Translations under genes and position numbers: made by a program
Part shown: positions 1 to 26,152 of the stretch, one piece after another
Layout of the letters: each line of letters begins with the position of its first letter
Numbering within the stretch: position 1 is the first letter of the stretch
From: Candidatus Microgenomates bacterium
GTDB taxonomy: Bacteria > Patescibacteriota > Microgenomatia > UBA8517
Direction of reading: 5' to 3'
Length of the DNA: 64,000 nucleotides
NCBI GenBank assembly: GCA_049519355.1
Contig: JBEKQV010000003.1
Coordinates: 19,646 to 83,645 of the forward strand
Notes under the pieces: generated by a model
Database searches by the model: none
What the model saw: only the letters and a program-made list of their open reading frames with translations
What the model was told of the DNA's origin: nothing

Positions 1-1172
1 TTCTGCCGATATTTTCCTCTCTGGTGAAAGCAGCATTGGTTATAATTAGTGTGGTTTTTTTAGGGAAAATTGCAGTTCCTTATTTTGTTCATAAACTTGC
101 AGGAACAAACTCACGCGAACTTCTTCTTTTGTCATCAATTGCAGCGGCTTTGGGTACAGCGGCTGTAACTTCATACTTTGGAATTTCACCTGCTCTTGGG
201 GCTTTTTTGGCGGGAGTGGTTATCTCTGAAAGTCAGGAAAATCATGCGGTTTTTGCGGAAATACGTCCCCTGAGGGACTTGTTTGTGGCTTTATTTTTTG
301 TAACATTGGGATTCCTGGTTAACCCTGCCGTAATTATATCAAAACTGTTTTTAATTGTAGCTTTGGCCTTGATTATCCTGGTTTTAAAGGCCGTTGTTGT
401 TTTTGGGGTAAGTACGGCATTTGGTTATAAGGGAAGGACTGCGATTTCCGAAAGCTTTGGTTTATCCCAGGTTGGCGAGTTTGCCTTTGTCATTTTTTCT
501 TCTGCAATGCTTTTAAAACTAATGAGTTCTCAGGAAACTTCCATTGGCATTTCCGTGACTTTATTGACGCTAATTATTTCTCCGATTCTTTATAACTGGG
601 CAACTCCGTTTTGGCAGAAAATGCGTACTATCACCTCCAAGTCAAAACTGCTTTCGGGACTGTTTCTTGCCGGGGAGAAGCGGCAGCAGGGAGACGCGGA
701 ATTTAGTGATCACATAATAATTTGCGGTTACGGAAGGGTGGGAAAATGGATTGGCAAGGCTTTCCAGGAATTCGGAATTCCATTTGTTGTAATTGATTAT
801 AACCAGAATATTGTCCGCGAGCTAAAAAACGAAAACACTCCGGTCTTGTACGGAGATCCTACCGAGCCGGAGATTCTTGAAGCCGCTGGAATCAGAAATT
901 CAAAAGCGGTAATTTTGGCAATTCCGGATAGAGTTGCTCAGGAAACTTTAATTGCTTATGTTCAGACAGTTGCCCCAAATACTAAAATAATTTCCAGGGC
1001 TCATCAAGATATTGATTGGGATAAGCTAAAAGGCTTAAGAGTTGATAAAGTTGTTCAACCTGAGTTTGAAGCGGCAATCGCAATTATCCGGAACGTTACC
1101 CAATCGATGGGCAAATCAAAAGAAGAAATATCTGCCGTAACAAAAAGTTTAAGATTGTCTCGTTCGCGTTAA
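1..1172 (+). CDS. Cation:proton antiporter (CPA2/KefB-like) with C-terminal TrkA-N/KTN domain. 5' end truncated by the window edge.
   Basis: The frame is open from the window start. Hydrophobic TM segments are followed by a Rossmann GxGxxG motif (IIICGYGRVGKWIGKAF) typical of KTN/TrkA_N regulatory domains of K+/H+ antiporters. Confidence 0.7.
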   Translation, partial: LPIFSSLVKAALVIISVVFLGKIAVPYFVHKLAGTNSRELLLLSSIAAALGTAAVTSYFGISPALGAFLAGVVISESQENHAVFAEIRPLRDLFVALFFVTLGFLVNPAVIISKLFLIVALALIILVLKAVVVFGVSTAFGYKGRTAISESFGLSQVGEFAFVIFSSAMLLKLMSSQETSIGISVTLLTLIISPILYNWATPFWQKMRTITSKSKLLSGLFLAGEKRQQGDAEFSDHIIICGYGRVGKWIGKAFQEFGIPFVVIDYNQNIVRELKNENTPVLYGDPTEPEILEAAGIRNSKAVILAIPDRVAQETLIAYVQTVAPNTKIISRAHQDIDWDKLKGLRVDKVVQPEFEAAIAIIRNVTQSMGKSKEEISAVTKSLRLSRSR

Positions 1173-1218
1173 ATTTCTTTGCCGCAACTTTCTTTTTTAA
1201 AGAAAGTGCGAAAGGTGT

Positions 1219-2148
1219 ATGAAATCTGCCCGAAGACGTGCGTTTATTGAACGAAAGAGAAAAAAGGGAAAATTCTTTGGAATTCTTGTCAAAGTTTTTA
1301 CCCCCGTTTTTTTGATTCTTGCGATCTTTGTCTTTATAAGGATCAGTACCCGCTATTGGAACGGACACGACAAAGTCAGCGTTGCATTCAGAGAGGCAAA
1401 TGGGGACGCGGCCATAACGGTAATGGATCCAAAGCTTGATGAAGTAACTACATTTACTATACCGGGCGATACGCAAGTTGAAGTAGCGCGGAATTTCGGG
1501 ACCTTCCGGATTAAAAATGTCTGGCAGCTCGGGATTGATCAAAAAGCCGGCGGAAGTTTGCTGCCGGAGACGATTAGAAATAATTTTCTTTTTCCGGTAT
1601 TTCTTTGGAGCGAGAGCAGTGCAGAAAGTTTAGGAACCGGAAACATGGGCGGAATTTTGCATTTTATTTTTCTTCCAAAAACAACAAATATTCCCTTTGG
1701 GGACAGACTTTCAATGGGAGTTTTTGCTTTTCGTATACAGGATCTTGGCAGAAGTGAGATAGATCTTGGCCAAAGTCAGTTTGTGACAAAGGAAACACTA
1801 AATGACGGGCAAATCGGTTATGTAATTAACGGCCCGATTTCTCAAAGATTAACTGTTTATTTTTCCGATAATGATATTGCGGATGAAAATCTTAGGGTCA
1901 ATATTGTTGATGCTACAGGGGCTCCAGGTGTTTCGGATAATGTCGGGGAAATTTTGGAGGTAATGGGAGGCAAGGTTGTATCGGTTGATAAGAAGTTAAG
2001 TGCCGAAAACTCGGACTGTAGTGTTACCGGAAACAACTCCGAGATTATCCGAAAAGTTTCAGATCTTTTTTCCTGCCGGGTCGTTAAAGGACAGACCGAT
2101 TTTGATCTTGAAATTCAGCTTGGGCAAAAGTTTGCCGCCAGGTTTTAA
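1219..2148 (+). CDS. Membrane-anchored LytR_C-domain protein (LCP/LytR cell-envelope related)
   Basis: N-terminal basic stretch plus TM helix. The C-terminal VNIVDATGAPGVSDNVGEILEVMGGKVVSV segment matches the LytR_C domain pattern. ATG at 1219. Confidence 0.45.
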   Translation: MKSARRRAFIERKRKKGKFFGILVKVFTPVFLILAIFVFIRISTRYWNGHDKVSVAFREANGDAAITVMDPKLDEVTTFTIPGDTQVEVARNFGTFRIKNVWQLGIDQKAGGSLLPETIRNNFLFPVFLWSESSAESLGTGNMGGILHFIFLPKTTNIPFGDRLSMGVFAFRIQDLGRSEIDLGQSQFVTKETLNDGQIGYVINGPISQRLTVYFSDNDIADENLRVNIVDATGAPGVSDNVGEILEVMGGKVVSVDKKLSAENSDCSVTGNNSEIIRKVSDLFSCRVVKGQTDFDLEIQLGQKFAARF

Positions 2149-2150
2149 AT

Positions 2151-2843
2151 TTACTCTGGAGTTTCTTCCGTAGCCTCGACGATGGGTGTATCTTTATGAA
2201 TCAGTTCTGGGGAAGTAAAGGCAACATAATCTATTTTTTCCGTTGGGAAAGAAGAAATATCCGGGGCTTTGGGGCCGCGTTCAATTTCTCTGATAAAAAC
2301 AGCGACCTCTTTCGGTTCAACTGATTTAATTAAGGTTTGGTATTTATTACCGGCCTTTATTAGATTTCTAAGCCTTGCGGCGATATCGTCGGGGAGGCTT
2401 CCGATGTGTTTCCCGTCAAGTGTGTTTATTGTAACTTTGTGGGGATAGGAAACTAGTTTTACTTCTTCCCCGGGATCGAGATTTGTAAAAACAGAACTAT
2501 CTCCCAAATTAAGGAGCGTTATAAGTCTGGTTTTTCCCGGCTCTTCCAGAAAAGATTCTGAAGAAGTAGGAGTAGAGAACTCACCACTGACTTTTTTTGC
2601 GGTTTTAAGTTTCTCAATAACTTTTAATGCTATCGGGTTAACCGCATCAATTTTTAAAACTTTTTTTGCCATTTCCCTTGCTTGGGAGATTTTTCCAAGT
2701 TCCGTGTAAGCTCGAGCAAGACGATTTAAGGCATCAACATCTTCGGAATTTTCCGAGAGTATTTCGAGATTAATTTTGACTGCCTCGGTCCAGTTTCCGG
2801 AGAGAGCTAAATTGATCGCAAGTTGGGCGGGAGAAGTATCCAT
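2151..2843 (-). CDS. TPR-like helical repeat protein
   Basis: N-terminal region has TPR-like helix-pair periodicity (ALNRLARAYTELGKISQAREMAKKVLKID). No catalytic motifs seen. Confidence 0.35.
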   Translation of the reverse strand: MDTSPAQLAINLALSGNWTEAVKINLEILSENSEDVDALNRLARAYTELGKISQAREMAKKVLKIDAVNPIALKVIEKLKTAKKVSGEFSTPTSSESFLEEPGKTRLITLLNLGDSSVFTNLDPGEEVKLVSYPHKVTINTLDGKHIGSLPDDIAARLRNLIKAGNKYQTLIKSVEPKEVAVFIREIERGPKAPDISSFPTEKIDYVAFTSPELIHKDTPIVEATEETPE

Positions 2844-2888: not shown

Positions 2889-3515
2889 TCAATAGGTTTT
2901 GAATAGGAGTTTTAGTGTAGATTTTGTCATAAGTATCAGGGTGAACCACATTATAGATAAGTCAGTAACGGCAGAGCCGTTTTCCACATAATTGCGGTCA
3001 AGTTTCATCCATTCCTTGAAAGAAAGCCTGTGTGATCCGTTTACAACCCAATTACTGGTTATACCGGGATTGACAAGTTCTCTAACTTTCTCTCCACGGT
3101 TAAGCTTTCGTGCCTCACCAATGGGGAATGGTCTCGGCCCAACGATACTCATTTCGCCCTTGAGGACGTTTATTATTTGGGGTAGTTCGTCAAAACCGGT
3201 TCTTGAAAGGGCCTTCCCAAATTTTGTAAACCTGGGATCATCTTTAATTTTAAAAACAGGTCCGTCAGCTTCGTTGAGTTTTTTGAGCAGGGATTGTTTT
3301 TGGGAAGCACTAGGCGTCATCGTCCTGAATTTGAATATTTTAAATATTTTTCCGTTTTTGCCAACACGGTTTTGAAGAAAAAAAATATCACCTTTCTCAG
3401 TGAGTTTAATTGCCAGTGATGTTAGAGACGCAATAGGAAGTGTAACAATGAGGATAATTATAGAAACCGAAACATCCAAAAACTTTTTTGCAAATGAGGT
3501 GTGATAATCATTCAT
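2889..3515 (-). CDS. Small PglC/WbaP-type initiating sugar phosphotransferase (polyprenyl-phosphate hexose-1-phosphate transferase)
   Basis: Single N-terminal TM helix followed by the hallmark bacterial sugar transferase motifs FKFRTM, DELPQ and GEMSIVGPRP. Length ~208 aa matches PglC-like monotopic PGTs. Confidence 0.85.
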   Translation of the reverse strand: MNDYHTSFAKKFLDVSVSIIILIVTLPIASLTSLAIKLTEKGDIFFLQNRVGKNGKIFKIFKFRTMTPSASQKQSLLKKLNEADGPVFKIKDDPRFTKFGKALSRTGFDELPQIINVLKGEMSIVGPRPFPIGEARKLNRGEKVRELVNPGITSNWVVNGSHRLSFKEWMKLDRNYVENGSAVTDLSIMWFTLILMTKSTLKLLFKTY

Positions 3516-3520
3516 TTAGG

Positions 3521-4510
3521 TCAGAATAAGTTGGCCCAGATAATCATTGCCTCTTTTAGTTTCTTGAAATATATTCCTTTCGGAAATTTAATTTTCTGAG
3601 CCAGTTCAATATAACATGATTTCGGGTTGTTTCCTTTCAAATTTAATTCCTCGACAGATTTCCATAGAATCTCATTAATTTTCATTCCTTTCAGCTCTTT
3701 TGTACGGTTATGTCCCGTGATTGAGGCTTTTTTGTGATTAACGAAAGGGGATCCATTGACAACACCGGTTTTCAGGTGATCCATTATTTTTTTTGAAAAT
3801 ATTCCGGCCCAAATGTCGTCGTATCTGTCATAACTCCATAGTTTTCCTTTGGGATCAGTTCCCATCATTGGGAAAAACATAATCGGTGTCACCTCCCGTT
3901 TAAACGCAAGGTTCATACTACACATCGGATAAAAAAGTCCAAATGGAATAAATTGGGTTAATGGTGGATAATTCTTCTCGTTCAAAATTTTTGGAAGTTT
4001 GATTTCTGTTTTTGCATCCAGGTCAAGTGCTCCGGACCATAGGCCGTGACTTACACTTACGGAATGAACATCTCTATTTTTGTAGGGGAAACCACGGGTG
4101 AACATCCATTTGGGGTTAGGATATGTTGCTTGCCAACCCACCGGTATTTTCCTTCTTAGATTCTCCAAGTGTTTTTTGACAAAATCTTTTTCGGCAGGGT
4201 AGCAGTCATCGTCAATCGTAATGATTACGTCCGCTCCGGCATTATAGGCTTCCCAGAAGCCAAAGGAACGAATTCCTGCATTTTTTCGGGAAAATATCCA
4301 CGATTTTTTACCAAATTCTTCTTCAATATCTTTGTGGGAGAAGACGGTAACTGAGGAAAACTTTAAATCTGGAATTTTGGCTTTTTTCTCCCACCGGTCT
4401 TCAACAATAATCAGGTGACAACCTGAAAATTCATTCTTCCATCTATTTAGAAATGACAAATTTCTTATTGTAGGAATAACAACGAATACTTTTATTCTTT
4501 CATTCTTCAT
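3521..4510 (-). CDS. GT75 family protein (reversibly glycosylated polypeptide / UDP-arabinopyranose mutase-like)
   Basis: VVIPTIRNLSFLNRWKNEF...HLIIVEDR and IITIDDDCYPAEKD align closely with plant RGP1 (IVIPTIRNLDFLEMWRPFF...HLIIVQDGD and IFTIDDDCFVAKD). The ORF-track start at 4531 is TTG; I use the internal ATG at 4510 (MKNERIKVF), which removes the overlap with the next gene. Confidence 0.7.
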   Translation of the reverse strand: MKNERIKVFVVIPTIRNLSFLNRWKNEFSGCHLIIVEDRWEKKAKIPDLKFSSVTVFSHKDIEEEFGKKSWIFSRKNAGIRSFGFWEAYNAGADVIITIDDDCYPAEKDFVKKHLENLRRKIPVGWQATYPNPKWMFTRGFPYKNRDVHSVSVSHGLWSGALDLDAKTEIKLPKILNEKNYPPLTQFIPFGLFYPMCSMNLAFKREVTPIMFFPMMGTDPKGKLWSYDRYDDIWAGIFSKKIMDHLKTGVVNGSPFVNHKKASITGHNRTKELKGMKINEILWKSVEELNLKGNNPKSCYIELAQKIKFPKGIYFKKLKEAMIIWANLF

Positions 4511-4522
4511 GGTATATATTCT

Positions 4523-5344
4523 ATGCACCAAGTTGGTAAACTTGATATAACACTTGCATTAGGCGAATTTATCATGACACGAATCGAAACACAACAATTT
4601 TTTGAGCTTCTCTGGGGGATGACCGAAAGAGAACTTCGGGCAAGGTATAAATATACTGTTTTCGGATTTTTGTGGATTGTATTGAACCCTGCATTTCAAA
4701 TGTTAATAATTGGTTTCATCTTCAGGTTTTTTATGAAAGAGCCAGTTCAGAATTATTACTATTTTCTTTTTATTGGACTTTTGATTTGGAATTTTTTCTC
4801 TTTATCTTTATCGAAAGCAACTCCCTCAATAGTTTTTGAAAGGACGCTTATAAAGAAAGCGAAGTTCTCGCGTTCGATTATCCCCCTGGCAATTGTTTTT
4901 TCTAATTTTGTTCATTTAATGGTCGCGATGGTTCTTCTTACCGTTCCGGTACTTTTTCTTAACACAATGACCATTACGAGTATTTTCTATATTTTAATCG
5001 CATTTGTTCTACTTCTTGTATTTACGTCGGGTATAAGCCTTCTTTGCGCAGCTTTAGATGTCAGATTTCGTGATGTTAATTTTTTTGTACAGGCATTTAT
5101 AATTTTTTGGTTTTATGCAACGCCGATAATATATCCATTATCAATTGTCCCTTATCAGTATTATTGGCTTTGGCGTTTTAATCCGATGACTGAGATGCTT
5201 CAATTTCTTCAGCACGGTTTCTTGGGGATGCCGCTTCCCGGAACGGCGATGATTATTATAAATACTATGCTAATAATAACCGTGGCGGCTGCGGGGATAT
5301 GGGTTTTCGGTAAAGAAAGTAAAAATTTTGACGATTGGGTATAA
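4523..5344 (+). CDS. ABC-2 type polysaccharide exporter permease (Wzm/TagG/KpsM-like)
   Basis: Six predicted TM segments and a conserved N-terminal ELLWGMTERELRARYKYTVFGFLW motif typical of Wzm/TagG. Immediately upstream of an ABC ATPase. Confidence 0.8.
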   Translation: MHQVGKLDITLALGEFIMTRIETQQFFELLWGMTERELRARYKYTVFGFLWIVLNPAFQMLIIGFIFRFFMKEPVQNYYYFLFIGLLIWNFFSLSLSKATPSIVFERTLIKKAKFSRSIIPLAIVFSNFVHLMVAMVLLTVPVLFLNTMTITSIFYILIAFVLLLVFTSGISLLCAALDVRFRDVNFFVQAFIIFWFYATPIIYPLSIVPYQYYWLWRFNPMTEMLQFLQHGFLGMPLPGTAMIIINTMLIITVAAAGIWVFGKESKNFDDWV

Positions 5345-5349
5345 ATAAT

Positions 5350-6060
5350 ATGAAAATAGATAAAGATTACGCTATTGAACTTTACGGAATTTCAAAAAAA
5401 TATACTATTCATCACGAAAAACCAACTCTTGTCGAGAAGTTTTTTAAGGGACGGGATGAAAAATTTTTGGCGCTTAATAATATTAATTTAAAAATAAATA
5501 GAGGAGAAAGTGTCGGAATAATCGGGGATAATGGTTCCGGCAAGACCACACTTCTAAAAATAATAGCCGGAATTACGGCTCCATCATCCGGTATTATAAA
5601 AGCCGGTGGCAGGGTTGTATCGATAATAGATCTCAATGCCGGTTTTCATGATGATTTGAGTGGGTTTCAGAATATATATCTGAATGGGATGTTTCTTGGC
5701 ATGACAAAAAAAGAAATTGATAGAAAATTAAGGGACATTATTATTTTTGCAGGAATCAGACAATTTATTGACGCGCCTCTTTTTACCTATTCTCAGGGGA
5801 TGAAATTACGTCTCGGTTTTTCCGTGGCCATACATAGCAATCCTGATATTTTACTTCTCGATGAGAATTTTTCTGTAGGAGATGAAAAATTCAAAAAAAA
5901 ATGCAGAGATATTATTAAAAAATTTAGAAAACAAAAGATGACATTATTAATCGCAAGTCACTGGAAACAGTTTATAGACCAAAACTGTGAACGGATAATC
6001 ACTTTAAAAAACGGAAAAATAATAAAAGATATCCATCCCGGTTTAAAGACAAAATCATGA
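5350..6060 (+). CDS. ABC transporter ATP-binding protein (Wzt/TagH/KpsT-like), short form without C-terminal carbohydrate-binding domain
   Basis: Walker A GDNGSGKTTLLKI, signature motif and Walker B LLLDE. The ORF-track start at 5335 is TTG; the ATG at 5350 follows the Wzm stop. Confidence 0.85.
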   Translation: MKIDKDYAIELYGISKKYTIHHEKPTLVEKFFKGRDEKFLALNNINLKINRGESVGIIGDNGSGKTTLLKIIAGITAPSSGIIKAGGRVVSIIDLNAGFHDDLSGFQNIYLNGMFLGMTKKEIDRKLRDIIIFAGIRQFIDAPLFTYSQGMKLRLGFSVAIHSNPDILLLDENFSVGDEKFKKKCRDIIKKFRKQKMTLLIASHWKQFIDQNCERIITLKNGKIIKDIHPGLKTKS

Positions 6061-6767
6061 AGGAGACAACTTTAAAAAAATTTCATTTGAGAAAGGCTTA
6101 TTCTATTTATCGAAACATAAAATGGTCCTTCTTCGACCACAGTTTAGTTAGAAAAGACATTGTTTATAGATTGATTAATCATTACGGAGGCGATTCAGGA
6201 CATAAGATAGAAACCCCCAGCGGCAATTTAGGTTTCGGGTTTATACATTATTGCATAATAAGGAATATCAGGCCGGCAAAAGTTTTATGTATAGGTTCAA
6301 GAATGGGTTTTGTTCCCGCGATATGTGCCTTAGCTTGTAAAGACAATCGATACGGTGTGGTGGAATTTGTTGATGCAGGGTTAGATGAGAGTGATAAGAA
6401 AAGCTGGTCGGGTATAGGTTTTTGGAAAAAAACGGATTTAAAGAAGCACTTCAATGTATCTAAGCTTAATAACTGGATTAATACTTACATAATGACATCA
6501 CAGTCTTTTGCGGATGCATACCCTAAGTGGAAATATGATTATATTTACATAGACGGTGACCATTCTTATGGTGGAGTAAAATTGGATTTCAAATTGTTTT
6601 GGCCGCGGCTTAATAAAAACGGGTTCATGGTGTTTCATGATGCAACAGTTAAAAATTGGGGATCTTTAAAAGGATTCGGTGTCTGGAAATTCCTTAAAGA
6701 AAATAAAAATAGACACAAAATAATTTTTCCTCTCAATGAATCCGGTCTGGCAATATTGCAAAAGTAA
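6057..6767 (+). CDS. Class I SAM-dependent methyltransferase, TylF/MycF-like (family 3 sugar O-methyltransferase; Methyltransf_24)
   Basis: SAM motif I VLCIGSRMGF and the YIDGDHSY motif characteristic of the TylF/MycF/CmcI family. Start ATGA overlaps the Wzt stop. Confidence 0.55.
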   Translation: MKETTLKKFHLRKAYSIYRNIKWSFFDHSLVRKDIVYRLINHYGGDSGHKIETPSGNLGFGFIHYCIIRNIRPAKVLCIGSRMGFVPAICALACKDNRYGVVEFVDAGLDESDKKSWSGIGFWKKTDLKKHFNVSKLNNWINTYIMTSQSFADAYPKWKYDYIYIDGDHSYGGVKLDFKLFWPRLNKNGFMVFHDATVKNWGSLKGFGVWKFLKENKNRHKIIFPLNESGLAILQK

Positions 6768-6776
6768 TGAATTAAA

Positions 6777-8027
6777 ATGTTCGGAATTAAAACTTTCATT
6801 CAAAAAAGAATTATTTACCCTTCGTATCTTTTTCCGGAAAAAAACGGTAAATTTCCGTCGAAGCCGGTTTCCCAAATAAAAATAAATTCCAGACTTTTTG
6901 CCTTAGAAAACAAACTAAAAGAACAAAGGAGTCTTTCGGGGTATGGCAATCTAATAACTTATCCGCGTCGAGATGCAATAAATGTTTGGAAAAGATTGAT
7001 TAACCTTAACCCCAACAATCTTGGTAATTGGTCTATTCGGGAAGTTGTTCCCGGACACGACGCGGCGGAAATTGAACGGGATTTAATTTTTAAAATGGTT
7101 GATCTTTATCATGGTGATAAGAAGAACCTTGAAGGATATGTAACCAGTGGAGGAACTGAAGCTAATATTTTTTCGGCTTGGGTCGGCTGCAAAAGTTTGC
7201 AAAAACGTGGTATCCAAAGACAACAAATGTGTTTAATAAAAACCAGCCTTACACATTATTCAGTCGGCAAAGCAGCAGATGTTGTAGGAGTACCAACCTA
7301 CGTAGTTGGTTTAGACGAGAAGGAGTGGTCCATGGACGTTAACGGTTTTGTTAAAAAGATCGAAAAGTTATCAAAAAGCGGTATGAAGGGTTTTCTCATT
7401 CCTTTGACACTGGGTTATACGGTTACGGGAACGGCGGACCCCTATGAAAGAATATGTATAGAGATCAAGAAACTTAAAGAACAATATGGAGTGGAGTTTT
7501 TTGTTTGGATGGATGCAGCCTTAAACGGGCTTATAGAACCATTTTTAAATAAAAAATTCAGCCCCTTTGAATTATCGGAAATTCAAATTTTTTTGACCGA
7601 TTTTCACAAATTTGGTTTTGTCCCGATTCCGTCCGGGGTAGTTTTATACCGGAGGAGACTACGAAATTTAATTGAAAAGCAAATTGACTATTTGGATGAA
7701 AAAGATAATACCTTGTTAGGATCGCGAAGCGGTATAGCTCCGGTTGCGTGTTGGACGATTATAAATACATTAGGCAAGAGTGGATTTAAGAAAATAATAA
7801 AACGTAATCTAAACAAGAAACAACAATTTATGAGTATATGCAAGAATAGACACCTTTCCATTATCAATAGTGAACGCAGTCTAAACTGTGGAATTATCTT
7901 AAAAGATATGGCTTTATTTGATAAGAAATTTTCAAATAAATACGGCCTTAACTTTAGGAAGATGAAGTTAATGTTTATATCAAAAAATTCTGAATATAAT
8001 ATTGCAAAAGCATTTTTTCTGAAGTAG
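6777..8027 (+). CDS. Group II PLP-dependent decarboxylase (MfnA / glutamate-decarboxylase-like)
   Basis: TSGGTEANIF matches the MfnA/GAD N-terminal motif. DFHKFGFVPIPSGVVLY matches the PLP-lysine region SGHKFGLAPLGCGWV of group II decarboxylases. Confidence 0.7.
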   Translation: MFGIKTFIQKRIIYPSYLFPEKNGKFPSKPVSQIKINSRLFALENKLKEQRSLSGYGNLITYPRRDAINVWKRLINLNPNNLGNWSIREVVPGHDAAEIERDLIFKMVDLYHGDKKNLEGYVTSGGTEANIFSAWVGCKSLQKRGIQRQQMCLIKTSLTHYSVGKAADVVGVPTYVVGLDEKEWSMDVNGFVKKIEKLSKSGMKGFLIPLTLGYTVTGTADPYERICIEIKKLKEQYGVEFFVWMDAALNGLIEPFLNKKFSPFELSEIQIFLTDFHKFGFVPIPSGVVLYRRRLRNLIEKQIDYLDEKDNTLLGSRSGIAPVACWTIINTLGKSGFKKIIKRNLNKKQQFMSICKNRHLSIINSERSLNCGIILKDMALFDKKFSNKYGLNFRKMKLMFISKNSEYNIAKAFFLK

Positions 8028-8059
8028 CTTAGCCATATTTCAAAAAGGCAATTATTATT

Positions 8060-8971
8060 ATGCTTATAACTTTCACAACGACTCAACCTAATATTCCCCT
8101 CAAAATCAAAGATTTAGAAAGAATCGGCAAGTTGGAAGTACTTAAAGGAGTTTATAATAAAAGTGCCAAAACAAAAGATATCCTTTCGAGAACAGAGATT
8201 TTACTTGCCAACCCTAAGTATTTTGGAGTTATTGACAGGAAGGTTATTAGTTTATTTAAAAATTTAAAATATCTTTTTTTAATGTCCTCGGGGTTTGACT
8301 GGGTGGATATCGATTATGCCAAATCCCGAAATATTATAGTTGGGGGAGCTAGGGGGACAACTTCTATAAGTGTTGCCGAACATGCTTGGGCTCTCGCTCT
8401 TACGTTGGCAAAATCTCTCCAAAATGTAACAACCAATTCCGCCGGAGTTATTAATACGCAGATTCATGGAAAAACAGTGGGGATATTTGGTTACGGATAC
8501 GTTGGAAAGGCAATAGCAAATATTGCACAAGGCTTCGGTGCCGAAGTTTGTTATACCTCAAGCCACAGATTAAAAGATTTGAGAAATAGACGATTTTTAA
8601 ATAAAGATGAACTATTAAGGAAATCCGACATAATATTTCTTTGTTTGCCATTAACAAAAGATACTAGAAATTATTTAAGTTCGGGTGAAATAGAATTATT
8701 AAAAAAGAATGCAATATTGATTAACACGGCAAGAGAAGATCTGGTAGAAAACAAACCGCTTTTTAAGGCATTGAAAACAGGTAGACTTTTTGGTTATGGG
8801 ATTGATACGGATAAACGAAATTCAACTTTCCTCAAAAAAAATAGGCAACTGCGCATTGTATCAACATTCCACGCGGCGTATCGGACCGCAGAAGCGCTTG
8901 AAGCAATATATTCCGATACTGCAAAAGATGTTGAAGCTTTTATAAAAGGGAAGCCGCTAAGTATTTTATAA
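8060..8971 (+). CDS. D-isomer-specific 2-hydroxyacid dehydrogenase (glycerate/phosphoglycerate dehydrogenase-like, no ACT domain)
   Basis: NAD-binding GKTVGIFGYGYVGKAIA...GAEV, catalytic Arg in ILINTARED and His in STFHAAYRT. Confidence 0.75.
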   Translation: MLITFTTTQPNIPLKIKDLERIGKLEVLKGVYNKSAKTKDILSRTEILLANPKYFGVIDRKVISLFKNLKYLFLMSSGFDWVDIDYAKSRNIIVGGARGTTSISVAEHAWALALTLAKSLQNVTTNSAGVINTQIHGKTVGIFGYGYVGKAIANIAQGFGAEVCYTSSHRLKDLRNRRFLNKDELLRKSDIIFLCLPLTKDTRNYLSSGEIELLKKNAILINTAREDLVENKPLFKALKTGRLFGYGIDTDKRNSTFLKKNRQLRIVSTFHAAYRTAEALEAIYSDTAKDVEAFIKGKPLSIL

Positions 8972-9683
8972 ATCTGGATCTCAGTAAATTTTCAAATCTC
9001 TTCAGATCGTGTATAAGAAGATTTATATTATTGTAGTTGAAATCACCAACATTATTTTTGCCCCAGTTATTTATAAAAATTGTTTTAAAACCGAGTTTAC
9101 CGGCAGGAACTATGTCCTGTTTTTCGGAGTCGCCGACATAAATTACATGGTCAGGAAGTATCCGGCCAAGGGATTTTAAAAGTAAATTAAAAGATTTTTT
9201 TGAGGGTTTAAGCTCGTCGAGGTCATTGGTGGTAATTATTTTGACGAAAACTTCCGACGGATTTTTTACTCCCAACTTATGAAGAGAGTTGAAAGTTTGT
9301 TGGATATCGGAATTTGTGAATAGAAAATTTTCCTTTGAACTTATTTTGAAATAGTTGGCCAATTTTAAGTTTTGACGAACGTATTTATCCTTTACGATTC
9401 CTTTTTCGATAGTAAACATAAGTTTTTTTGTATTTAAATTGCCGGTTTCCCGGATAATATCAATCCAATCCACCCCTTTTCTTTCGAGTTCAATAAAATT
9501 ATTTTTATTATTTTTGCTTTGCCTGACATAATACTGAATATATTTTTTACGAAGATGATTAATAAGCGAGGGATTAAAATACAAAGTACCGTCCAAATCC
9601 CAAACAATTATTTTTGCGTGCGAATAATCCTTCAGCAGCAAAAGCAAAGTTTTGTATCTTTTTAATTTTTTTGATAAAGTCAT
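8940..9683 (-). CDS. HAD-superfamily hydrolase (phosphatase)
   Basis: Motif I IIVWDLDGTL (DxDGT) and motif IV VIYVGDSEKQDIVPAGKLG. It is the lone minus-strand gene in a plus-strand run and overlaps the 3' end of the dehydrogenase gene by 32 bp. Confidence 0.65.
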   Translation of the reverse strand: MTLSKKLKRYKTLLLLLKDYSHAKIIVWDLDGTLYFNPSLINHLRKKYIQYYVRQSKNNKNNFIELERKGVDWIDIIRETGNLNTKKLMFTIEKGIVKDKYVRQNLKLANYFKISSKENFLFTNSDIQQTFNSLHKLGVKNPSEVFVKIITTNDLDELKPSKKSFNLLLKSLGRILPDHVIYVGDSEKQDIVPAGKLGFKTIFINNWGKNNVGDFNYNNINLLIHDLKRFENLLRSRFIKYLAASLL

Positions 9684-9802
9684 TTTTGCAAATCTGCCTA
9701 ATAATATTTGCTTCGCGGGAAATAAGCAAGAAAATGATTAATATAGAGATATAATGAGGTGGAAAATTTGCTCTCTCGGCGAGCATGCTAAATTATACAT
9801 AA

Positions 9803-10786
9803 ATGTCAGTGACTATAAAGCAAAAATTTAAAAAAATACTTGCCAGGCACTACGAAGATTTATCTGCAATAAAAAGCATTGAGACCTTTCTAAAGAAAAA
9901 AAGAGGCTATGTTATTCGTATGCCCAAGCCGGGATCAGACATAATACATTTGGTTTCAGGGGGAATGGATTCAATAACCACATGGGCGATTCTTATGGAA
10001 AAATATAAACTAAAGGTTCACCCCGTGGCTATAGAAACAGGCCAAGGTAAACACAAATCCGAACTAAGATCTCTTTCGTTTTATTCAAAAATGTTTAAGA
10101 AAAGATACCCCGATTTATACGTTGAGCCCTTTAAAATTACGTACCCCTCATCTCCTCCCGAGATAAAACAGATGCTAACGGTTGATTTAGAGAAAACCGT
10201 ACACCCGGATGTAATTAAAAAGTATTTTAATGCCAACAATAATACCGTTATATTAAAACGAAAATTTTTATATCCGGCATTTGTTGCCTTTCCAGCTGCA
10301 CGGGTTGCACTTTTCTTTGAAATGCAAAGGAATAAAAAAATCAGGGCTATTTCAACGGGAATTCTTCCGTCCGATGGTTATTACAATGAAAGCCAAACTT
10401 TGACAGCCTTACGTGGAGCCATGTTTGCTCTTTGTACATTTACTAATGATTACAATTGGCAGATATTCAGTTTGTGTTTTGAGAAAGAGATACACAGTCT
10501 TTATACAAAAGCCGATCTGGTTAAGTGGGCTTACGCAAACAATCTTCCGCTAGAAAACACATATAGCTGTCTGATGAACTTCGATAAAAACTGTGGGATT
10601 TGCGTCAATTGTCAGGTAAGAAAAAAAGCTTTTAAAAAAGCTGGCGTTAAGGATATCACTGAGTACGAAAGTGAAAGCATCTCCGTCCATAAGTTTATGA
10701 CACAAAAATTGGCAAAAACGCATAATCTGGTAAAATATAAACTTCTTCATAAAAAAAAGATAATTATTAAAGATTATACTCAATAA
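9803..10786 (+). CDS. QueC-like PP-loop ATP pyrophosphatase (ExsB/QueC/WbuX family; candidate sugar amidotransferase/amidoligase)
   Basis: PP-loop LVSGGMDS plus a C-terminal Zn-ribbon-like CLMNFDKNCGICVNCQVR, as in QueC. At 327 aa it is ~100 aa longer than QueC, with N- and C-terminal extensions. It sits in a glycan locus, not a queuosine locus. Confidence 0.6.
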   Translation: MSVTIKQKFKKILARHYEDLSAIKSIETFLKKKRGYVIRMPKPGSDIIHLVSGGMDSITTWAILMEKYKLKVHPVAIETGQGKHKSELRSLSFYSKMFKKRYPDLYVEPFKITYPSSPPEIKQMLTVDLEKTVHPDVIKKYFNANNNTVILKRKFLYPAFVAFPAARVALFFEMQRNKKIRAISTGILPSDGYYNESQTLTALRGAMFALCTFTNDYNWQIFSLCFEKEIHSLYTKADLVKWAYANNLPLENTYSCLMNFDKNCGICVNCQVRKKAFKKAGVKDITEYESESISVHKFMTQKLAKTHNLVKYKLLHKKKIIIKDYTQ

Positions 10787-10932
10787 AATATTGCGGCATT
10801 TTATGAAAGCGTACAGTTTACAATATGAATAAGAACTTAGGATATTTTACTGCTCTAGCTTTTTTTGACATAAACGGAAAAATTACGGCACGAGGGCTTG
10901 CATTTCAGAAGTTATTAGTTTATCCGTAAGTT

Positions 10933-11700
10933 ATGTCAAATTATTTTTTAAACATATTTGAAACCAGATTTAAAAAGTTATATGGCAATGGAATTTTCAA
11001 TTTAAACGACGATATATTGTCAAATGCTGAAGTATTGGATGCTATCGAAAAAATGCCTGATGACGGCACCAAGGAGATTGCTAAATTTGTTACGACCAGG
11101 TTTGGTTTAAACAAAAAAATAAAGAAAATAGTTATCTTGGGTTCCGGTAGCGGAAAATTAGGAACCCGACTGGCGGATTACTTTAAAAATTCAATAATTG
11201 TAGATATCGACAAAAGCAGTCCCGTTATAAAGAGATTAAAAAATATTTTTAATAGGGACAAATTAAGAATGCCAAAACTTGGTGACGCACGTAACATACC
11301 GCTTGAAAAGGGTAGCGTTGATTTAATAGTTGCCTATAGCACCCTGAGGTATATAAATGATAGACGCAAAGTAATAGAAAGTATCAATAAGATTTTAAAA
11401 TCTGGTGGCTATGCCGTAATTGTAGAGGCAAGAGCAATAGATGTGGTGGAGGATATTGAATCCACCCTGAAAAATAAAAGAATTGCTTTTACCCGTAATA
11501 CGGAAAATAATATTCTTTTTTCGAGAACAAGTTTTTTTTATTACCTGGTTCTGGAATCTTCTAAAAACAAGATTTTGAAAAACAGGATTGAAAAAGTTGA
11601 AAACAAGAACAATTCGAGTTTTTTGGAGGCGGCTTTGAAATGTGCAGGCAAGTATAAAGGCTCGCTTTATTATGTAAGCTGGCAAAAGAAAAATGGTTAA
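10933..11700 (+). CDS. Class I SAM-dependent methyltransferase (Methyltransf_11/25-like)
   Basis: Motif I VILGSGSGKLG, post-I acidic DID and motif II/III VDLIVAYSTLRYI...LKSGGYAVIVE. Confidence 0.7.
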   Translation: MSNYFLNIFETRFKKLYGNGIFNLNDDILSNAEVLDAIEKMPDDGTKEIAKFVTTRFGLNKKIKKIVILGSGSGKLGTRLADYFKNSIIVDIDKSSPVIKRLKNIFNRDKLRMPKLGDARNIPLEKGSVDLIVAYSTLRYINDRRKVIESINKILKSGGYAVIVEARAIDVVEDIESTLKNKRIAFTRNTENNILFSRTSFFYYLVLESSKNKILKNRIEKVENKNNSSFLEAALKCAGKYKGSLYYVSWQKKNG

Positions 11701-12799
11701 AGACTTTCACTTAAATTTTGTTGATATCGACAATAGGGAAGTAGAATCCGTTAGACGGGTGTTATTATCAAGGCACCTTGAACGGGGTTCTGTTACAAAA
11801 TTTGTTGAAAAAAAGTTAAAACATTTAATTAACGTTAAGAACGCAGTTTTAGTTAGTAATGCAACAGGAGCACTAATCGCTGGCCTAAAGGCATCGGGAA
11901 TAGGATTTGGAGATGAAGTTCTAACCACACCTTTTACATTCGCGGCCACAGTCAATGCGATTTCTTTAGTAGGAGCAGTTCCTGTTTATGTTGATATTGA
12001 CCCGGAGACTTTTAATCTGGACCCCGAAAAGATTGAAGAAAAAATATCCAGAAGGACGAAAGCAATATTGACTGTTGATCTTTTCGGACTTCCTTGCGAT
12101 TACGAAAAGATCGGCGTTATTGCCAAGAAACACAATTTGGTGGTTATTGCCGATTCGAGCCAAGCCTTCGGTTCTTTATTTAACAATAAGTACTTTTTTC
12201 CTAATGTAAGTTTGCAGGTTTTTTCATTCTTTATCTCGAAAGTTATAACTGCAGGGGAGGGAGGTTTGGCGATAACAAATAACAAGGAAATTGCCGATAA
12301 TTTCAATATATTTATCAACCATGGCCAGAAAAGAGGCAGTAAATATAAGTTCATTGCCTGTGGATGGAATTTCCGGCCAACCGATATCGAAGCGGCTATC
12401 ATTAAGAGCCAGTTGGGAAAATTAAACAGGATAATTTCAAAGAGGAAAAGGAACGCTAGATATCTTACGCAAAAACTTAAAAATACAAAAGGCCTTATTC
12501 TTCCCTCTGTTGGGATAAACCGGGAACATTCATTTTCCAGATATACGGTTAGGATTGGTAAAGATTTTAGGTCAACACGCGAACAAGTTATTAATTATTT
12601 GAGGAAAAATGGAGTTGAAACTGATGTTATCTATCCCAAACCTTTATATTTTTATAAACATTTATCTTTCGGGTTTGGCAAAGGAAGTTGTTTAGAATCC
12701 GAACGAGCTTCCCGTGAAGTTTTGACAATTCCTGTTCATCAAAATCTTACGAATAAGGATTTGGGCCACATTTGTAAATGCATTAAAGATAAAAGCTAG
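11693..12799 (+). CDS. DegT/DnrJ/EryC1/StrS-family PLP-dependent sugar aminotransferase
   Basis: N-terminal VLVSNATGALIAGLKA...GDEVLTTPFTFAATVNAI and the PLP-lysine region FSFFISKVITAGEGG. Start overlaps the preceding methyltransferase stop by 8 bp. Confidence 0.85.
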   Translation: MVKDFHLNFVDIDNREVESVRRVLLSRHLERGSVTKFVEKKLKHLINVKNAVLVSNATGALIAGLKASGIGFGDEVLTTPFTFAATVNAISLVGAVPVYVDIDPETFNLDPEKIEEKISRRTKAILTVDLFGLPCDYEKIGVIAKKHNLVVIADSSQAFGSLFNNKYFFPNVSLQVFSFFISKVITAGEGGLAITNNKEIADNFNIFINHGQKRGSKYKFIACGWNFRPTDIEAAIIKSQLGKLNRIISKRKRNARYLTQKLKNTKGLILPSVGINREHSFSRYTVRIGKDFRSTREQVINYLRKNGVETDVIYPKPLYFYKHLSFGFGKGSCLESERASREVLTIPVHQNLTNKDLGHICKCIKDKS

Positions 12800-12900
12800 T
12801 GAAATCGGGCGCCGGCTCCATTTTTGATACATCCGTCCGTGTTTGCCCGTAGATTGCATGCGAAATTGATTATATTTATAATGACGGATACCCGCGCGTG

Positions 12901-14004: not shown

Positions 14005-14006
14005 TT

Positions 14007-16626: not shown

Positions 16627-16630
16627 TTTT

Positions 16631-17788: not shown

Positions 17789-17928
17789 TTTAAAGTTAAG
17801 TTTGCAAATCGTACCACTTTATACAATTAGGTGTAAAGATTTTCAAAATTTTTGGCATTTCAAGAAAACCATGCTTATATAGCATTTATATTGGATTATC
17901 TGTAAAATATAACCGCACAAAAATAGGT

Positions 17929-18263: not shown

Positions 18264-18264
18264 T

Positions 18265-19950: not shown

Positions 19951-19951
19951 T

Positions 19952-20947: not shown

Positions 20948-20951
20948 ATTT

Positions 20952-26128: not shown

Positions 26129-26152
26129 TGCGATATAATGCCCCTAGCATAA

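What the first reader, a model, noticed from the sequence alone, without database searches (positions are those of the whole stretch)
3521..4510. Bacterial homolog of plant reversibly glycosylated polypeptide / UDP-arabinopyranose mutase (GT75)
The N-terminus (VVIPTIRNLSFLNRWKNEF...HLIIVEDR) and the DDDC motif block (IITIDDDCYPAEKD) match the plant RGP1/UAM signature almost residue for residue. GT75 proteins are overwhelmingly eukaryotic (plants, some protists); bacterial members are rare. This one sits directly between the PglC-like initiating transferase and the Wzm/Wzt exporter. That placement suggests either a UDP-Arap to UDP-Araf mutase feeding arabinofuranose into the glycan, or a self-glycosylating primer protein.
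Basis: partly seen in the sequence, partly recalled or inferred. Interest (0 to 1): 0.6.

Follow-up and report, generated by a model that had tools for sequence, protein, structure and literature searches.

The report
Flavin-free sugar-ring mutase in CPR glycan locus
The gene is a real bacterial relative of the plant UDP-arabinopyranose mutase with a complete catalytic site; such genes are common in uncultured bacteria, and here it most likely makes a five-membered-ring (furanose) sugar donor for a cell-surface polymer, doing the job usually done by a flavin enzyme.

Summary
**Observation:** confirmed. The ORF at 3521-4510 (− strand, 329 aa) is a full-length GT75/RGP protein (Pfam PF03214, 176.9 bits; AF2 model TM 0.84 to rice UAM2 and 0.74 to MtdL).

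**Catalytic site:** every residue shown to be essential in MtdL and plant UAMs is present and invariant in relatives: DDD100-102, Arg139, Asp163, Arg229, Asp232, His259.

the claim of rarity. There are ≥1,236 clusters at 50% identity and ≥162 species genomes across many phyla, mostly Patescibacteria. CAZy already lists prokaryotic GT75 entries, and two bacterial members (MtdL, Hyg20) are characterised.

**Context:** the gene is translationally coupled to the initiating phosphoglycosyltransferase and divergent from Wzm/Wzt. Together with a TuaH-like glycosyltransferase, these form the constant module of a hypervariable glycan locus.

**New lead:** in sister loci the same TuaH-like GT sits next to either a GT75 mutase or a bona fide flavin UDP-galactopyranose mutase, never both. 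This suggests the GT75 enzyme is a flavin-free supplier of UDP-Galf, or of the stereo-analogous UDP-L-Araf.

**Limits:** the substrate is not proven. A self-glycosylating primer role is unlikely.

**Verdict:** new member of a known kind, of moderate interest.

The parts
3521..4510 (-). GT75/RGP-family NDP-sugar pyranose-furanose mutase (329 aa; an alternative TTG start at 4531 is unlikely)
   Evidence: Pfam PF03214 176.9 bits. PDB hits to OsUAM2 8CID and MtdL 7XPR/7YUA. AF2 model pLDDT 88.9, TM 0.84 and 0.74. Catalytic residues D100-102, R139, D163, R229, D232, H259 are invariant.
2889..3515 (-). Small polyprenyl-phosphate phosphoglycosyltransferase (PGT, Bac_transf) that initiates the glycan; its start lies 5 nt after the mutase stop, so the two are probably translationally coupled
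   Evidence: PF02397 186.8 bits; TIGR03025 221.7 bits, below the equivalog cutoff. Junction TGAcctaaATG. mutase-PGT synteny is conserved in L081-L084, L085, L086, L089 and L124; L028 and L048 have the reverse order, PGT-mutase.
4523..5344 (+). ABC-2 permease (Wzm/TagG-like), divergent from the mutase; the start may be the internal ATG at 4574
   Evidence: PF01061 60 bits; NF050109 galactan-export Wzm 71 bits, below cutoff. 57-72% identical and syntenic in L081 and L083. Sequence.
5335..6060 (+). ABC ATPase (Wzt/TagH-like, no C-terminal carbohydrate-binding domain)
   Evidence: PF00005 79.5 bits; teichoic-acid export 181 bits and galactan export Wzt 167 bits, both below cutoff. Syntenic.
16631..17788 (-). 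TuaH-like GT-B glycosyltransferase, the candidate furanosyltransferase that uses the mutase product
   Evidence: NF047676 TuaH 91.7 bits, below cutoff. It is the only GT conserved (49-51% identity) between the window, L081 and L083. It lies directly adjacent to the GT75 gene in 15 RGP-anchored loci (15 of 28 TuaH-like genes; 15 of 25 family members) and in 8 of 75 TuaH-anchored genes. Orthologs are adjacent to a flavin UGM in other loci.
6057..24974 (.). Strain-variable part of the glycan locus. It holds methyltransferases, a PLP decarboxylase, a 2-hydroxyacid dehydrogenase, a HAD hydrolase, a QueC-like protein, a DegT aminotransferase, a GT-C (PMT-like), an FAD oxidoreductase, a carbamoyltransferase, a GDSL protein and a GT4-PQQ fusion. 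The TuaH-like GT listed above is embedded in it.
   Evidence: Pfam and NCBIfam annotation. Apart from the TuaH-like GT, L081 and L083 have no counterpart beyond weak GT4-type matches (21-37% identity, partial). GC 0.34-0.36 versus 0.42-0.47 in the housekeeping part of the window.
24971..29637 (.). Distal semi-conserved end of the locus: GT4, Wzy_C/O-antigen-ligase-like membrane protein (26153-27676), DUF4330 (27673-28506), GT4
   Evidence: Pfam. Wzy_C and DUF4330 recur with the GT75 gene in 21-28 of 80 loci and lie at the far end of L081 and L083.
24..2843 (.). Conserved flank outside the pathway proper: Na+/H+ exchanger-TrkA fragment, a 309-aa LytR_C-like protein and a TPR protein
   Evidence: 60-85% identical and syntenic in L081 and L083. 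Pfam.

Best explanation
The gene encodes a catalytically competent, metal-dependent, flavin-independent GT75 NDP-sugar pyranose-to-furanose mutase.

Mechanism, inferred from MtdL and plant UAMs:
- D100-D102 and H259 hold Mn2+ or Mg2+ on the diphosphate, and R229 binds the beta-phosphate.
- R139 attacks C1 to give a transient Arg-sugar adduct.
- D232 and D163 promote ring opening and re-closure through O4.
- The NDP-furanose is then released.

Proposed pathway role, inferred:
- The cytoplasmic product is used on an undecaprenyl-phosphate-linked glycan that is started by the co-transcribed PGT.
- The glycan is extended by glycosyltransferases. The conserved TuaH-like GT is the best candidate furanosyltransferase.
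- It is exported by the divergently encoded Wzm/Wzt ABC transporter.
- It is then attached or polymerised outside the cell by the Wzy_C-like protein.

The mutase, PGT, Wzm/Wzt and TuaH-like GT form the constant module of an otherwise hypervariable surface-glycan locus of a Patescibacteria (CPR) bacterium.

The most likely product is UDP-galactofuranose, with the enzyme acting as a non-orthologous substitute for flavin UGM. The stereo-analogous UDP-L-arabinofuranose is the second choice. My estimates are P(active mutase) about 0.88, P(UDP-Galf) about 0.45 and P(UDP-L-Araf) about 0.2.
For: Shown:
- Family membership by HMM, sequence and fold.
- All residues whose mutation abolishes activity in MtdL or plant UAM are present and invariant in 27 homologs. 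These are D109/DDD, R159, D195, R257 and D260. The Mn2+ ligand H287, which is lost in inactive AtRGP5, is also present and invariant (PMC9937993). The class-2 inactive signature (DDN, no R257 or H287 equivalents, as in OsUAM2 8CID) is absent (PMC6861824).
- At the specificity positions the protein follows the UDP-type class-1 signature (P13, C112, M229, K289, S292), not the GDP-type MtdL signature (T13, S86-D87, N112, Q229, R289, H292).
- Operon structure.
- A glycan-assembly neighbourhood in 39 of 40 loci of the ≥45%-identity clades.
- A constant module set against variable content in the closest relatives.

Support for the UGM-equivalence inference:
- Starting from the TuaH-like GT, 16 of 75 genes have a GT75 gene in the locus (8 directly adjacent). 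Six loci (about 4 independent) instead have a verified UDP-galactopyranose mutase 35-50 bp away, or separated only by PIG-L (TIGR00031 325-338 bits against a cutoff of 303.75; Pfam GLF 195-200 bits). None has both.
- Glf-associated GTs nest at two places among GT75-associated GTs in an NJ tree.
- No Glf was found in the 84 GT75-anchored loci or in the window.
- In L071 a GalE/WbpP-type UDP-hexose 4-epimerase lies directly upstream of the GT75 gene.
- AtRGP2 and OsUAM1 can interconvert UDP-Galp and UDP-Galf in vitro (PMC9937993).
Against: - There are no biochemical data for any member of this clade.
- In this window the TuaH-like GT lies 12 kb from the mutase, not adjacent to it.
- The GT75 copies in the GT clades sister to the Glf-associated ones belong to signature class VSA/S/K. 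The window protein is NAG/S/K, so the UGM-equivalence argument reaches it only by extension. Intermediates exist, and NAG copies are also TuaH-adjacent in L003, L029, L043 and L121.
- The mutual exclusion of Glf and GT75 (0 observed, about 1.2 expected) is not statistically significant on its own.
- Both trees are NJ without support values.
- Only 10 kb on each side was visible, so a glf gene could lie elsewhere in these genomes.
- 22 of 32 large TuaH-anchored loci have neither mutase nearby.
- L056 (another subclade, TSA/G/R) has a UGD-family gene plus UXS/4-epimerase-like SDRs beside its GT75 genes, which favours UDP-Ara there.
- The L014-type SDR weakly resembles GDP-mannose 3,5-epimerase.
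- Positions 86-88 and 42 match neither characterised class.
Confidence: 0.62

Rival explanations
1. It is strictly a UDP-L-arabinopyranose to UDP-L-arabinofuranose mutase, as in plants, and puts L-Araf into the glycan.
For: The protein is closest to the eukaryotic class-1 UAM signature at 13 of 15 functional positions and 36-40% identical overall. In the Paceibacterota locus L056, GT75 genes lie beside a UGD-family gene and UXS/4-epimerase-like SDRs, and that copy shares S87-A88-G228 with plant UAM. L-Araf and D-Galf are stereochemically analogous, so the Glf-swap evidence does not exclude it.
Against: The 64-kb window has no UGD, UXS or any SDR. A UGD-family gene occurs in only 2 of about 160 loci. 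The window protein has N-A-G/S where plant UAM has D-S-A/G, and S91 and G216 substitutions affect AtRGP2 activity (PMC9937993). The first DxD motif, DGD in class 1, is EDR here. L-Araf is rare in bacterial glycans (general knowledge).
Confidence: 0.2
2. It is an MtdL/Hyg20-type GDP-L-galactose or GDP-L-fucose pyranose-furanose mutase, or acts on another NDP-sugar altogether.
For: [quoted passage not shown] The SDR near the GT75 gene in L014, in the window's subclade, weakly resembles GDP-mannose 3,5-epimerase (111 bits). Homologs in other phyla carry N42, T/S86, D87 and R289 like MtdL. At least five signature classes suggest several substrates.
Against: The window protein has P13, N77 and A78 where MtdL has T13, S86 and D87. 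T13P weakens GDP binding about 28-fold, S86D abolishes it, and D87S/N abolishes activity. It also has C112, M229, K289 and S292 as in UDP-type enzymes. It is only 28% identical to MtdL. The locus has no GDP-mannose pathway genes.
Confidence: 0.12
3. It is a conventional GT-A glycosyltransferase that transfers a sugar to the lipid-linked intermediate made by the adjacent PGT, not a mutase.
For: GT-A fold with a DXD motif; distant structural matches to UDP-dependent GT-A transferases; tight coupling to the PGT.
Against: No GT75 member is known to glycosylate anything but its own Arg. The mutase-specific residues R139, D163 and D232 are invariant. The gene's positional alternative in sister loci is a mutase (Glf), not a transferase.
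Confidence: 0.04
4. It is a self-glycosylating primer protein, or a non-catalytic class-2-like scaffold.
For: The historical RGP literature; class-2 plant UAMs are inactive (PMC6861824).
Against: Arg glycosylation is the covalent catalytic intermediate (PMC9937993; title of PDB 7YUA). The locus has a lipid-phosphate initiator. The class-2 hallmarks (DDN, loss of R257 and H287) are absent.
Confidence: 0.02

Closest known systems
Plant class-1 UDP-arabinopyranose mutases / reversibly glycosylated polypeptides (OsUAM1/3, AtRGP1-3; GT75, EC 5.4.99.30)
   Same: Same Pfam family over the full length and the same fold. DDD, the autoglycosylated Arg, D195/D260, R257 and H287 are all conserved. UDP-type residues at positions 13, 112, 229, 289 and 292. 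36-40% identity. Cytosolic, with no TM segment or signal peptide.
   Different: Prokaryotic, in a clade that is sister to the eukaryotic one, not nested inside it (NJ). The first DxD is EDR, not DGD; the third is DLD, not DYD. Sugar-contact residues are N-A-G/S versus D-S-A/G. It is encoded in a bacterial Und-P/ABC-transporter glycan operon. The substrate is probably not UDP-Ara.
MtdL (A201A pathway) and Hyg20 (hygromycin A pathway): bacterial GT75 GDP-L-galactose / GDP-L-fucose mutases
   Same: Bacterial, Mn2+-dependent GT75 mutases with the same catalytic residues. The solved structures (7XPR-7XPV, 7YUA) match the model with TM 0.74.
   Different: Only 28% identical. GDP-specific residues (T13, N42, S86, D87, N112, Q229, R289, H292) are replaced. 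They act in actinomycete antibiotic clusters, whereas this gene sits in a cell-surface glycan locus.
Flavin-dependent UDP-galactopyranose mutase (Glf/UGM, TIGR00031, PF03275)
   Same: Proposed same role: supply of a UDP-furanose to a surface-glycan pathway. It occupies the same position next to orthologous TuaH-like GTs in sister loci.
   Different: Unrelated fold and chemistry: FADH- nucleophile versus Arg nucleophile plus a divalent metal. There is no sequence similarity.
Mycobacterial galactan pathway (WecA, Glf, GlfT1/GlfT2, Wzm-Wzt, Lcp1) and Gram-positive wall teichoic/teichuronic acid pathways (TagO/TagA/TagF/TagGH, TuaH)
   Same: System-level analogy: a lipid-P-linked primer, cytoplasmic extension with a furanose donor, ABC-transporter export, then extracytoplasmic ligation. 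Wzm/Wzt give their best NCBIfam hits to galactan and teichoic-acid exporters. TagA-like, TagF-like and TuaH-like genes occur in related loci.
   Different: All matches are below the equivalog cutoffs. The initiator is a small PglC/WbaP-type PGT, not WecA/TagO. The mutase is GT75, not Glf. The polymer structure is unknown.

Membership tests
GT75 / RGP (Pfam PF03214) | Full-length match to the family HMM above the gathering threshold | tested here: met
   176.9 bits against a cutoff of 23.8, profile positions 5-336 of 342
GT75 / RGP (Pfam PF03214) | Central DDD (DXD) metal-binding motif (OsUAM1 position 110; MtdL D109-D111) | tested here: met
   D100-D101-D102, invariant in 27 homologs
GT75 / RGP (Pfam PF03214) | Conserved Arg that is autoglycosylated and acts as nucleophile (OsUAM1 R158; MtdL R159) | tested here: met
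   R139 in the RGFPY motif, invariant
GT75 / RGP (Pfam PF03214) | Residues that separate active enzymes from inactive class-2 proteins: the Mn2+ ligand His (MtdL H287), the beta-phosphate Arg (R257), and the acids D195 and D260 | tested here: met
   H259, R229, D163 and D232 are all invariant; OsUAM2 (8CID) has R, T and DDN instead
GT75 / RGP (Pfam PF03214) | GT-A domain plus the GT75-specific core and C-terminal helical domains | tested here: met
   AF2 model pLDDT 88.9, pTM 0.91. Foldseek TM 0.84 to 8CID and 0.74 to MtdL. The next hits are generic GT-A with TM ≤0.42.
GT75 / RGP (Pfam PF03214) | Metal-dependent NDP-pyranose/furanose mutase activity and reversible Arg glycosylation | not testable with these tools
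   Requires an enzyme assay
Plant class-1 UAM (UDP-L-Arap mutase) | Class-1 sequence hallmarks: first motif DGD, third motif DYD, D-S-A at MtdL positions 86-88, Gly at position 228 | tested here: not met
   The window protein has EDR, DLD, N-A-G and Ser198
Plant class-1 UAM (UDP-L-Arap mutase) | UDP-L-Ara as the physiological substrate, with a UDP-Xyl synthase and 4-epimerase available | tested here: inconclusive
   No UGD, UXS or SDR in the 64-kb window. The rest of the genome was not visible.
MtdL/Hyg20-type GDP-L-hexose mutase | Guanine- and sugar-specific residues T13, N42, S86, D87 (and N112, Q229, R289, H292) | tested here: not met
   P13, R39 or W40 (alignment-dependent), N77, A78, C103, M199, K261 and S263
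ABC-transporter-dependent Und-P glycan pathway (Wzm/Wzt or TagGH type) | Polyprenyl-P phosphoglycosyltransferase, ABC-2 permease and ABC ATPase encoded together with glycosyltransferases | tested here: met
   PF02397, PF01061 and PF00005 plus GT4/TuaH-like GTs. The arrangement is conserved in relatives.

The most novel reading that the evidence does not exclude
GT75 mutases are the physiological, flavin-independent source of UDP-galactofuranose (or of other furanose donors) in Patescibacteria and several other uncultured phyla. They have repeatedly replaced, or been replaced by, flavin UGM next to the same furanosyltransferase family. They belong to the constant initiation and export module of hypervariable cell-envelope glycan loci. 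They have diversified into at least five active-site classes with different NDP-sugar specificities. A more speculative extension is that the translationally coupled small PGT uses the furanose nucleotide itself, so that the glycan starts with a furanose-1-phosphate.
Probability: 0.4. Interest if true: 0.6.

Novelty: new member of a known kind. Interest (0 to 1): 0.45.

Why it matters
Furanose sugars are absent from mammals, and the enzymes that make them are drug targets and useful biocatalysts. The only known bacterial route to UDP-Galf is the flavoenzyme UGM. GT75 mutases are known in bacteria only from two antibiotic pathways.

If this clade supplies furanose donors for the cell envelope of CPR bacteria, three things follow:
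- It shows a second, cofactor-free route to surface furanosides, which would suit organisms with minimal cofactor metabolism.
- It gives a first functional handle on the largely unknown envelope glycans of Patescibacteria.
- It offers a set of natural active-site variants from which to learn how GT75 enzymes choose their sugar.

It also corrects the impression that GT75 is essentially a plant family.

Tried and rejected
- **Substrate from neighbouring SDRs:** ambiguous. L071's SDR is clearly GalE/WbpP-like. The L014 type is only weakly Pal/GME-like. NCBIfam gives near-equal sub-threshold scores to Fcl, LegB, RmlB and GalE.
- **Precursor genes in the window:** none. tblastn with GT2, SDR, TagA and PIG-L representatives and with Glf and UGD probes found nothing.
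- **Fusion proteins as Rosetta-stone clues:** the 740-927-aa fusions are eukaryote-type RGPs (Pfam about 440 bits) joined to GT2_4, GT47 or DUF3405 domains. They are not members of this clade.
- **8CID as the plant comparator:** rejected. It is rice UAM2, a non-catalytic class-2 protein. I used class-1-type database sequences instead, and used my recalled AtRGP1 sequence only as a lead.
- **Taxon names for cluster representatives:** mostly absent. Many NCBI labels ('uncultured Gammaproteobacteria/Pseudomonadales' for binchicken or PATE bins) look unreliable, and I left those loci unlabelled.
- **Promoter and terminator scan:** not above shuffled expectation.
- **Rfam:** no hits in the window.
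- **Literature on GT75 in CPR or other prokaryotic surface glycans:** none found.
- **Recent plant-to-bacterium transfer:** rejected. The prokaryotic sequences form a broad clade sister to all eukaryotic RGPs, and the window protein nests inside Patescibacteria (NJ only).
- **Strict dependence of the TuaH-like GT on GT75:** rejected. Only 9 of 32 large TuaH-anchored loci have a GT75 gene nearby.
Full report
**1. The observation**

The window has an ORF at 3521..4531 on the − strand. The ATG at 4510 gives a 329-aa protein whose length and N-terminus match about 120 close database homologs.

- Pfam RGP (PF03214) matches end to end: E 8.6e-52, 176.9 bits, gathering cutoff 23.8.
- NCBIfam has no model for the protein.
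- The PDB sequence search finds a 'UDP-arabinopyranose mutase' (8CID, E 1e-27; profile E 1e-37) and the MtdL series (7XPR, 7YUA and others, E 3e-14; profile E 3e-23).
- An AlphaFold2 model built on 27 homologs is confident (pLDDT 88.9, pTM 0.91). It superposes on 8CID (rice UAM2) with TM 0.84 and on MtdL with TM 0.74. All other hits are generic GT-A folds with TM ≤0.42.

**2. Is the active site intact?**

The MtdL structure paper (PMC9937993) and the UAM review (PMC6861824) define the functional residues:
- the DDD motif plus His287 for Mn2+;
- Arg159 (OsUAM1 Arg158), the autoglycosylated residue and proposed nucleophile;
- Arg257 for the beta-phosphate;
- Asp195 and Asp260 for catalysis.

Inactive class-2 proteins have DDN and lack Arg257 and His287.

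The numbering of chain 7YUA is the paper's numbering. Using the HMMER and MAFFT alignments, the window protein has D100-D102, R139, D163, R229, D232 and H259. All are invariant among 27 homologs of 55-77% identity. 8CID itself carries the class-2 signature (DDN, Thr and Arg at the R257 and H287 positions), so it is the wrong plant comparator.

At the positions the paper links to nucleotide and sugar choice, the window protein follows the UDP-type class-1 pattern (P13, C112, M229, K289, S292). It does not follow the GDP-type MtdL pattern (T13, S86-D87, N112, Q229, R289, H292). It differs from plant UAM at positions 86-88 and 228, with N-A-G/S against D-S-A/G.

Overall identity is 36-40% to class-1-type eukaryotic RGPs, 28.5% to OsUAM2 and 28% to MtdL. 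The plant-type sequences used were database proteins with Pfam RGP scores of about 440 bits. My recalled AtRGP1 sequence served only to pick them out.

**3. How rare is it?**

It is not rare.
- The word-indexed search returned 651 hits. The best 120 were 55-100% identical, and the named ones were all Patescibacteria.
- The exhaustive HMMER search of 1.84 billion representatives gave 1,236 clusters at 50% identity with E ≤1e-3, 731 with E ≤1e-10 and 262 with E ≤1e-30.
- A scan of one genome per species, limited to two peptide patterns, found 162 genomes. They include many Patescibacteria lineages: Gottesman-, Woese-, Roizman-, Chisholm- and Daviesbacteria, Paceibacterota and Saccharibacteria. 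They also include Chloroflexota, Acidobacteriota, Dormiibacterota, Armatimonadota, Melioribacteraceae, WOR-3, KSB1, Phycisphaerae, Methylacidiphilales and one Thermoplasmata archaeon.
- CAZy GT75 already held 9 bacterial and 43 archaeal entries in 2019 and 308 entries in total by 2023.
- An NJ tree rooted on MtdL puts eukaryotic class 1 and class 2 in one clade and the prokaryotic sequences in a sister clade. The window protein nests among Patescibacteria. This is NJ without support values, but it argues against a recent transfer from plants.

No paper in the searchable library discusses GT75 in CPR bacteria or in any prokaryotic surface-glycan pathway. MtdL and Hyg20 remain the only characterised bacterial members.

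**4. Context in the window**

- The mutase stop codon is 5 nt from the start of a small PGT (Bac_transf, 2889-3515, same strand; TGAcctaaATG).
- Wzm (4523-5344) and Wzt (5335-6060) are divergent. The two start codons are only 12-63 bp apart.
- Downstream, to about 30 kb, lies a large glycan locus of low GC (0.34-0.36 against 0.42-0.47 elsewhere). It holds methyltransferases, a PLP decarboxylase, a 2-hydroxyacid dehydrogenase, a HAD hydrolase, a QueC-like protein, DegT, a GT-C, an FAD oxidoreductase, a TuaH-like GT, a carbamoyltransferase, GDSL, a 1,340-aa GT4-PQQ-DUF5060 fusion, GT4s, Wzy_C and DUF4330.
- Beyond about 35 kb the genes are housekeeping: KsgA, XerC/D, MetK, GyrA.
- The whole window has no SDR epimerase/dehydratase, no GT2, no TagA, no UGD and no Glf.

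**5. Context elsewhere**

I clustered ORFs from 80 GT75-anchored genome loci. The recurrent neighbours were:

| Neighbour | Loci (of 80) |
|---|---|
| GT2 | 40 |
| Wzt | 32 |
| GT4 | 30 |
| DUF4330 | 28 |
| Wzm | 27 |
| 655-aa Wzy_C-like protein | 25 |
| TuaH-like GT | 23 (15 of its 25 genes directly adjacent) |
| SDR | 22 |
| Wzy_C | 21 |
| TagA/WecG | 17 |
| PGT | 13 (9 of its 13 genes directly adjacent) |

In the ≥45%-identity clades, 39 of 40 loci have a GT or PGT within 10 kb.

The closest relatives are L081 (mutase 75% identical) and L083 (71%, labelled Saccharimonadales). They share the flank Na/H exchanger – 309-aa protein – TPR – PGT – mutase | Wzm – Wzt at 57-85% protein identity, and the TuaH-like GT at 49-51%. 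Everything else between Wzt and Wzy_C differs between the three genomes. L083 has a TagF-like glycerophosphotransferase and a nucleotidyltransferase. L081 has an SDR, Mannosyl_trans3 and Methyltransf_21.

This is the architecture of a hypervariable, O-antigen-like or teichoic-acid-like locus. Its constant module is PGT + mutase + Wzm/Wzt + TuaH-like GT.

**6. The reciprocal test and the Glf swap**

I scanned metagenome contigs starting from the TuaH-like GT (alignment A2). This gave 78 loci.
- Of 75 TuaH-like genes, 16 have a GT75 gene in the locus, and 8 of those are within 300 bp.
- Six loci (L113, L134/L135, L137/L138, L153; about four independent) instead have a gene 35-50 bp from the GT, or separated from it only by PIG-L.
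- That gene is a bona fide UDP-galactopyranose mutase: TIGR00031 325-338 bits against a cutoff of 303.75, and Pfam GLF 195-200 bits.
- These loci have the same companions: Wzy_C, DUF4330, Wzm/Wzt, TagA, GT2, PIG-L and a QueC-like gene.
- No locus has both mutase types, and none of the 84 GT75-anchored loci has Glf.
- In an NJ tree of the GTs, the Glf-associated ones nest at two separate places among the GT75-associated ones.

The simplest reading is non-orthologous displacement. The two unrelated mutases supply the same kind of donor to the same GT family. That donor would be UDP-Galf, or the stereo-analogous UDP-L-Araf.

Caveats:
- With 16 and 6 loci out of 78, zero overlap is not significant (about 1.2 expected).
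- Only 10 kb on each side was visible.
- 22 of 32 large TuaH-anchored loci have neither mutase nearby.
- The GT75 copies next to the swap clades belong to signature class VSA/S/K. The window protein is NAG/S/K. Intermediates NSA and VSG exist, and NAG copies are also TuaH-adjacent in L003, L029, L043 and L121.

**7. Substrate diversity**

The family shows at least five signature classes at positions 86-88/228/289. L056 (Paceibacterota, class TSA/G/R, which shares S-A-G with plant UAM) has a UGD-family gene and two SDRs resembling UDP-GlcA decarboxylase or 4-epimerases next to two GT75 genes and GT2s. UDP-Ara is plausible there.

L071 has a GalE/WbpP-type 4-epimerase directly upstream of its GT75 gene. 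Homologs in non-CPR phyla have N42, T/S86, D87 and R289 as in MtdL.

For the window protein it is the second choice.

**8. Verdict**

- The finding is a true GT75 mutase with an intact active site. I put the probability that it is an active mutase at about 0.88.
- It is a new member of a known enzyme kind, not a rare oddity.
- Its likely role is to feed a furanosyl donor into a Und-P-initiated, ABC-exported envelope glycan of a CPR bacterium.
- A self-glycosylating primer role or an ordinary transferase role is unlikely.
- The part worth following up is the apparent interchange with flavin UGM, which makes a flavin-free bacterial route to UDP-Galf directly testable.

Noticed in passing
L015 (Roizmanbacteria MGAF01000022), about 3-18 kb; also L053, L017, L056, L068: L015 has four tandem GT75 paralogs, three of them alternating with two copies of an AAA_14/DUF4143 ATPase gene. 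Several other loci carry two divergent GT75 copies, which suggests paralog specialisation.
   Followed up: partly
L002, L004, L009, L010, L013, L053 (Gottesman-/Woesebacteria-type loci): In about 10 loci the GT75 gene lies immediately next to, and divergent from, dnaA-dnaN, that is at the replication origin. It is followed by a 655-aa Wzy_C-like membrane protein with a TPR-like tail.
   Followed up: no
P0201 and P0151 (representative proteins): One GT75 homolog is interrupted by an intein (Intein_splicing + LAGLIDADG_3). Another is fused to an N-terminal HNH endonuclease domain.
   Followed up: no
P0185, P0193, P0189, P0199, P0180: Eukaryote-type RGPs (Pfam about 440 bits) of 584-927 aa are fused to GT2_4, GT47 (exostosin) or DUF3405 domains. 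These look like natural mutase-glycosyltransferase fusions, presumably from protists or algae.
   Followed up: partly
window 6057-10786; also L048, L019, L138: A conserved sub-block follows the mutase or Wzt in several loci: Methyltransf_24, a PLP-dependent decarboxylase, a 2-hydroxyacid dehydrogenase, a HAD hydrolase and a QueC-like ATP-pyrophosphatase. It may make an amino-alcohol or amidated substituent for the glycan (speculation).
   Followed up: no
window 14007-16641: A GT-C (PMT-like) membrane glycosyltransferase (14007-15395, +) overlaps tail-to-tail with an FAD amine-oxidase-type protein (15358-16641, −). The latter passes the NCBIfam PRK07233 'hypothetical protein' equivalog (412 bits). 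It is not a GLF-type mutase.
   Followed up: partly
window 20952-24974 (−): A 1,340-aa fusion of a GT4 glycosyltransferase, a PQQ/BamB-like beta-propeller and DUF5060. Homologs recur in 8 related loci (component 17).
   Followed up: no
window 12898-14004 (+): A 368-aa protein with no Pfam hit and a weak match to the NAD-binding part of adenosylhomocysteinase (48.7 bits), sitting between DegT and the GT-C gene.
   Followed up: no
window 1-64000: No Rfam family, including tRNA or riboswitch families, reaches its gathering score anywhere in 64 kb. GC drops from 0.42-0.47 in the housekeeping part to 0.34-0.36 across the glycan locus, which is consistent with lateral exchange of the variable region.
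   Followed up: partly
window 43462-46110 (−): GyrA matches the DNA_topoisoIV domain in two separate stretches, which hints at an insertion within the catalytic domain.
   Followed up: no
record titles (e.g. L007, L008, L018, L039 'HK-STAS-PATE-15'): Many MAGs with typical Patescibacteria gene content and GT75 sequences are labelled 'uncultured Gammaproteobacteria' or 'Pseudomonadales' in their public records. These are probably mislabelled.
   Followed up: no
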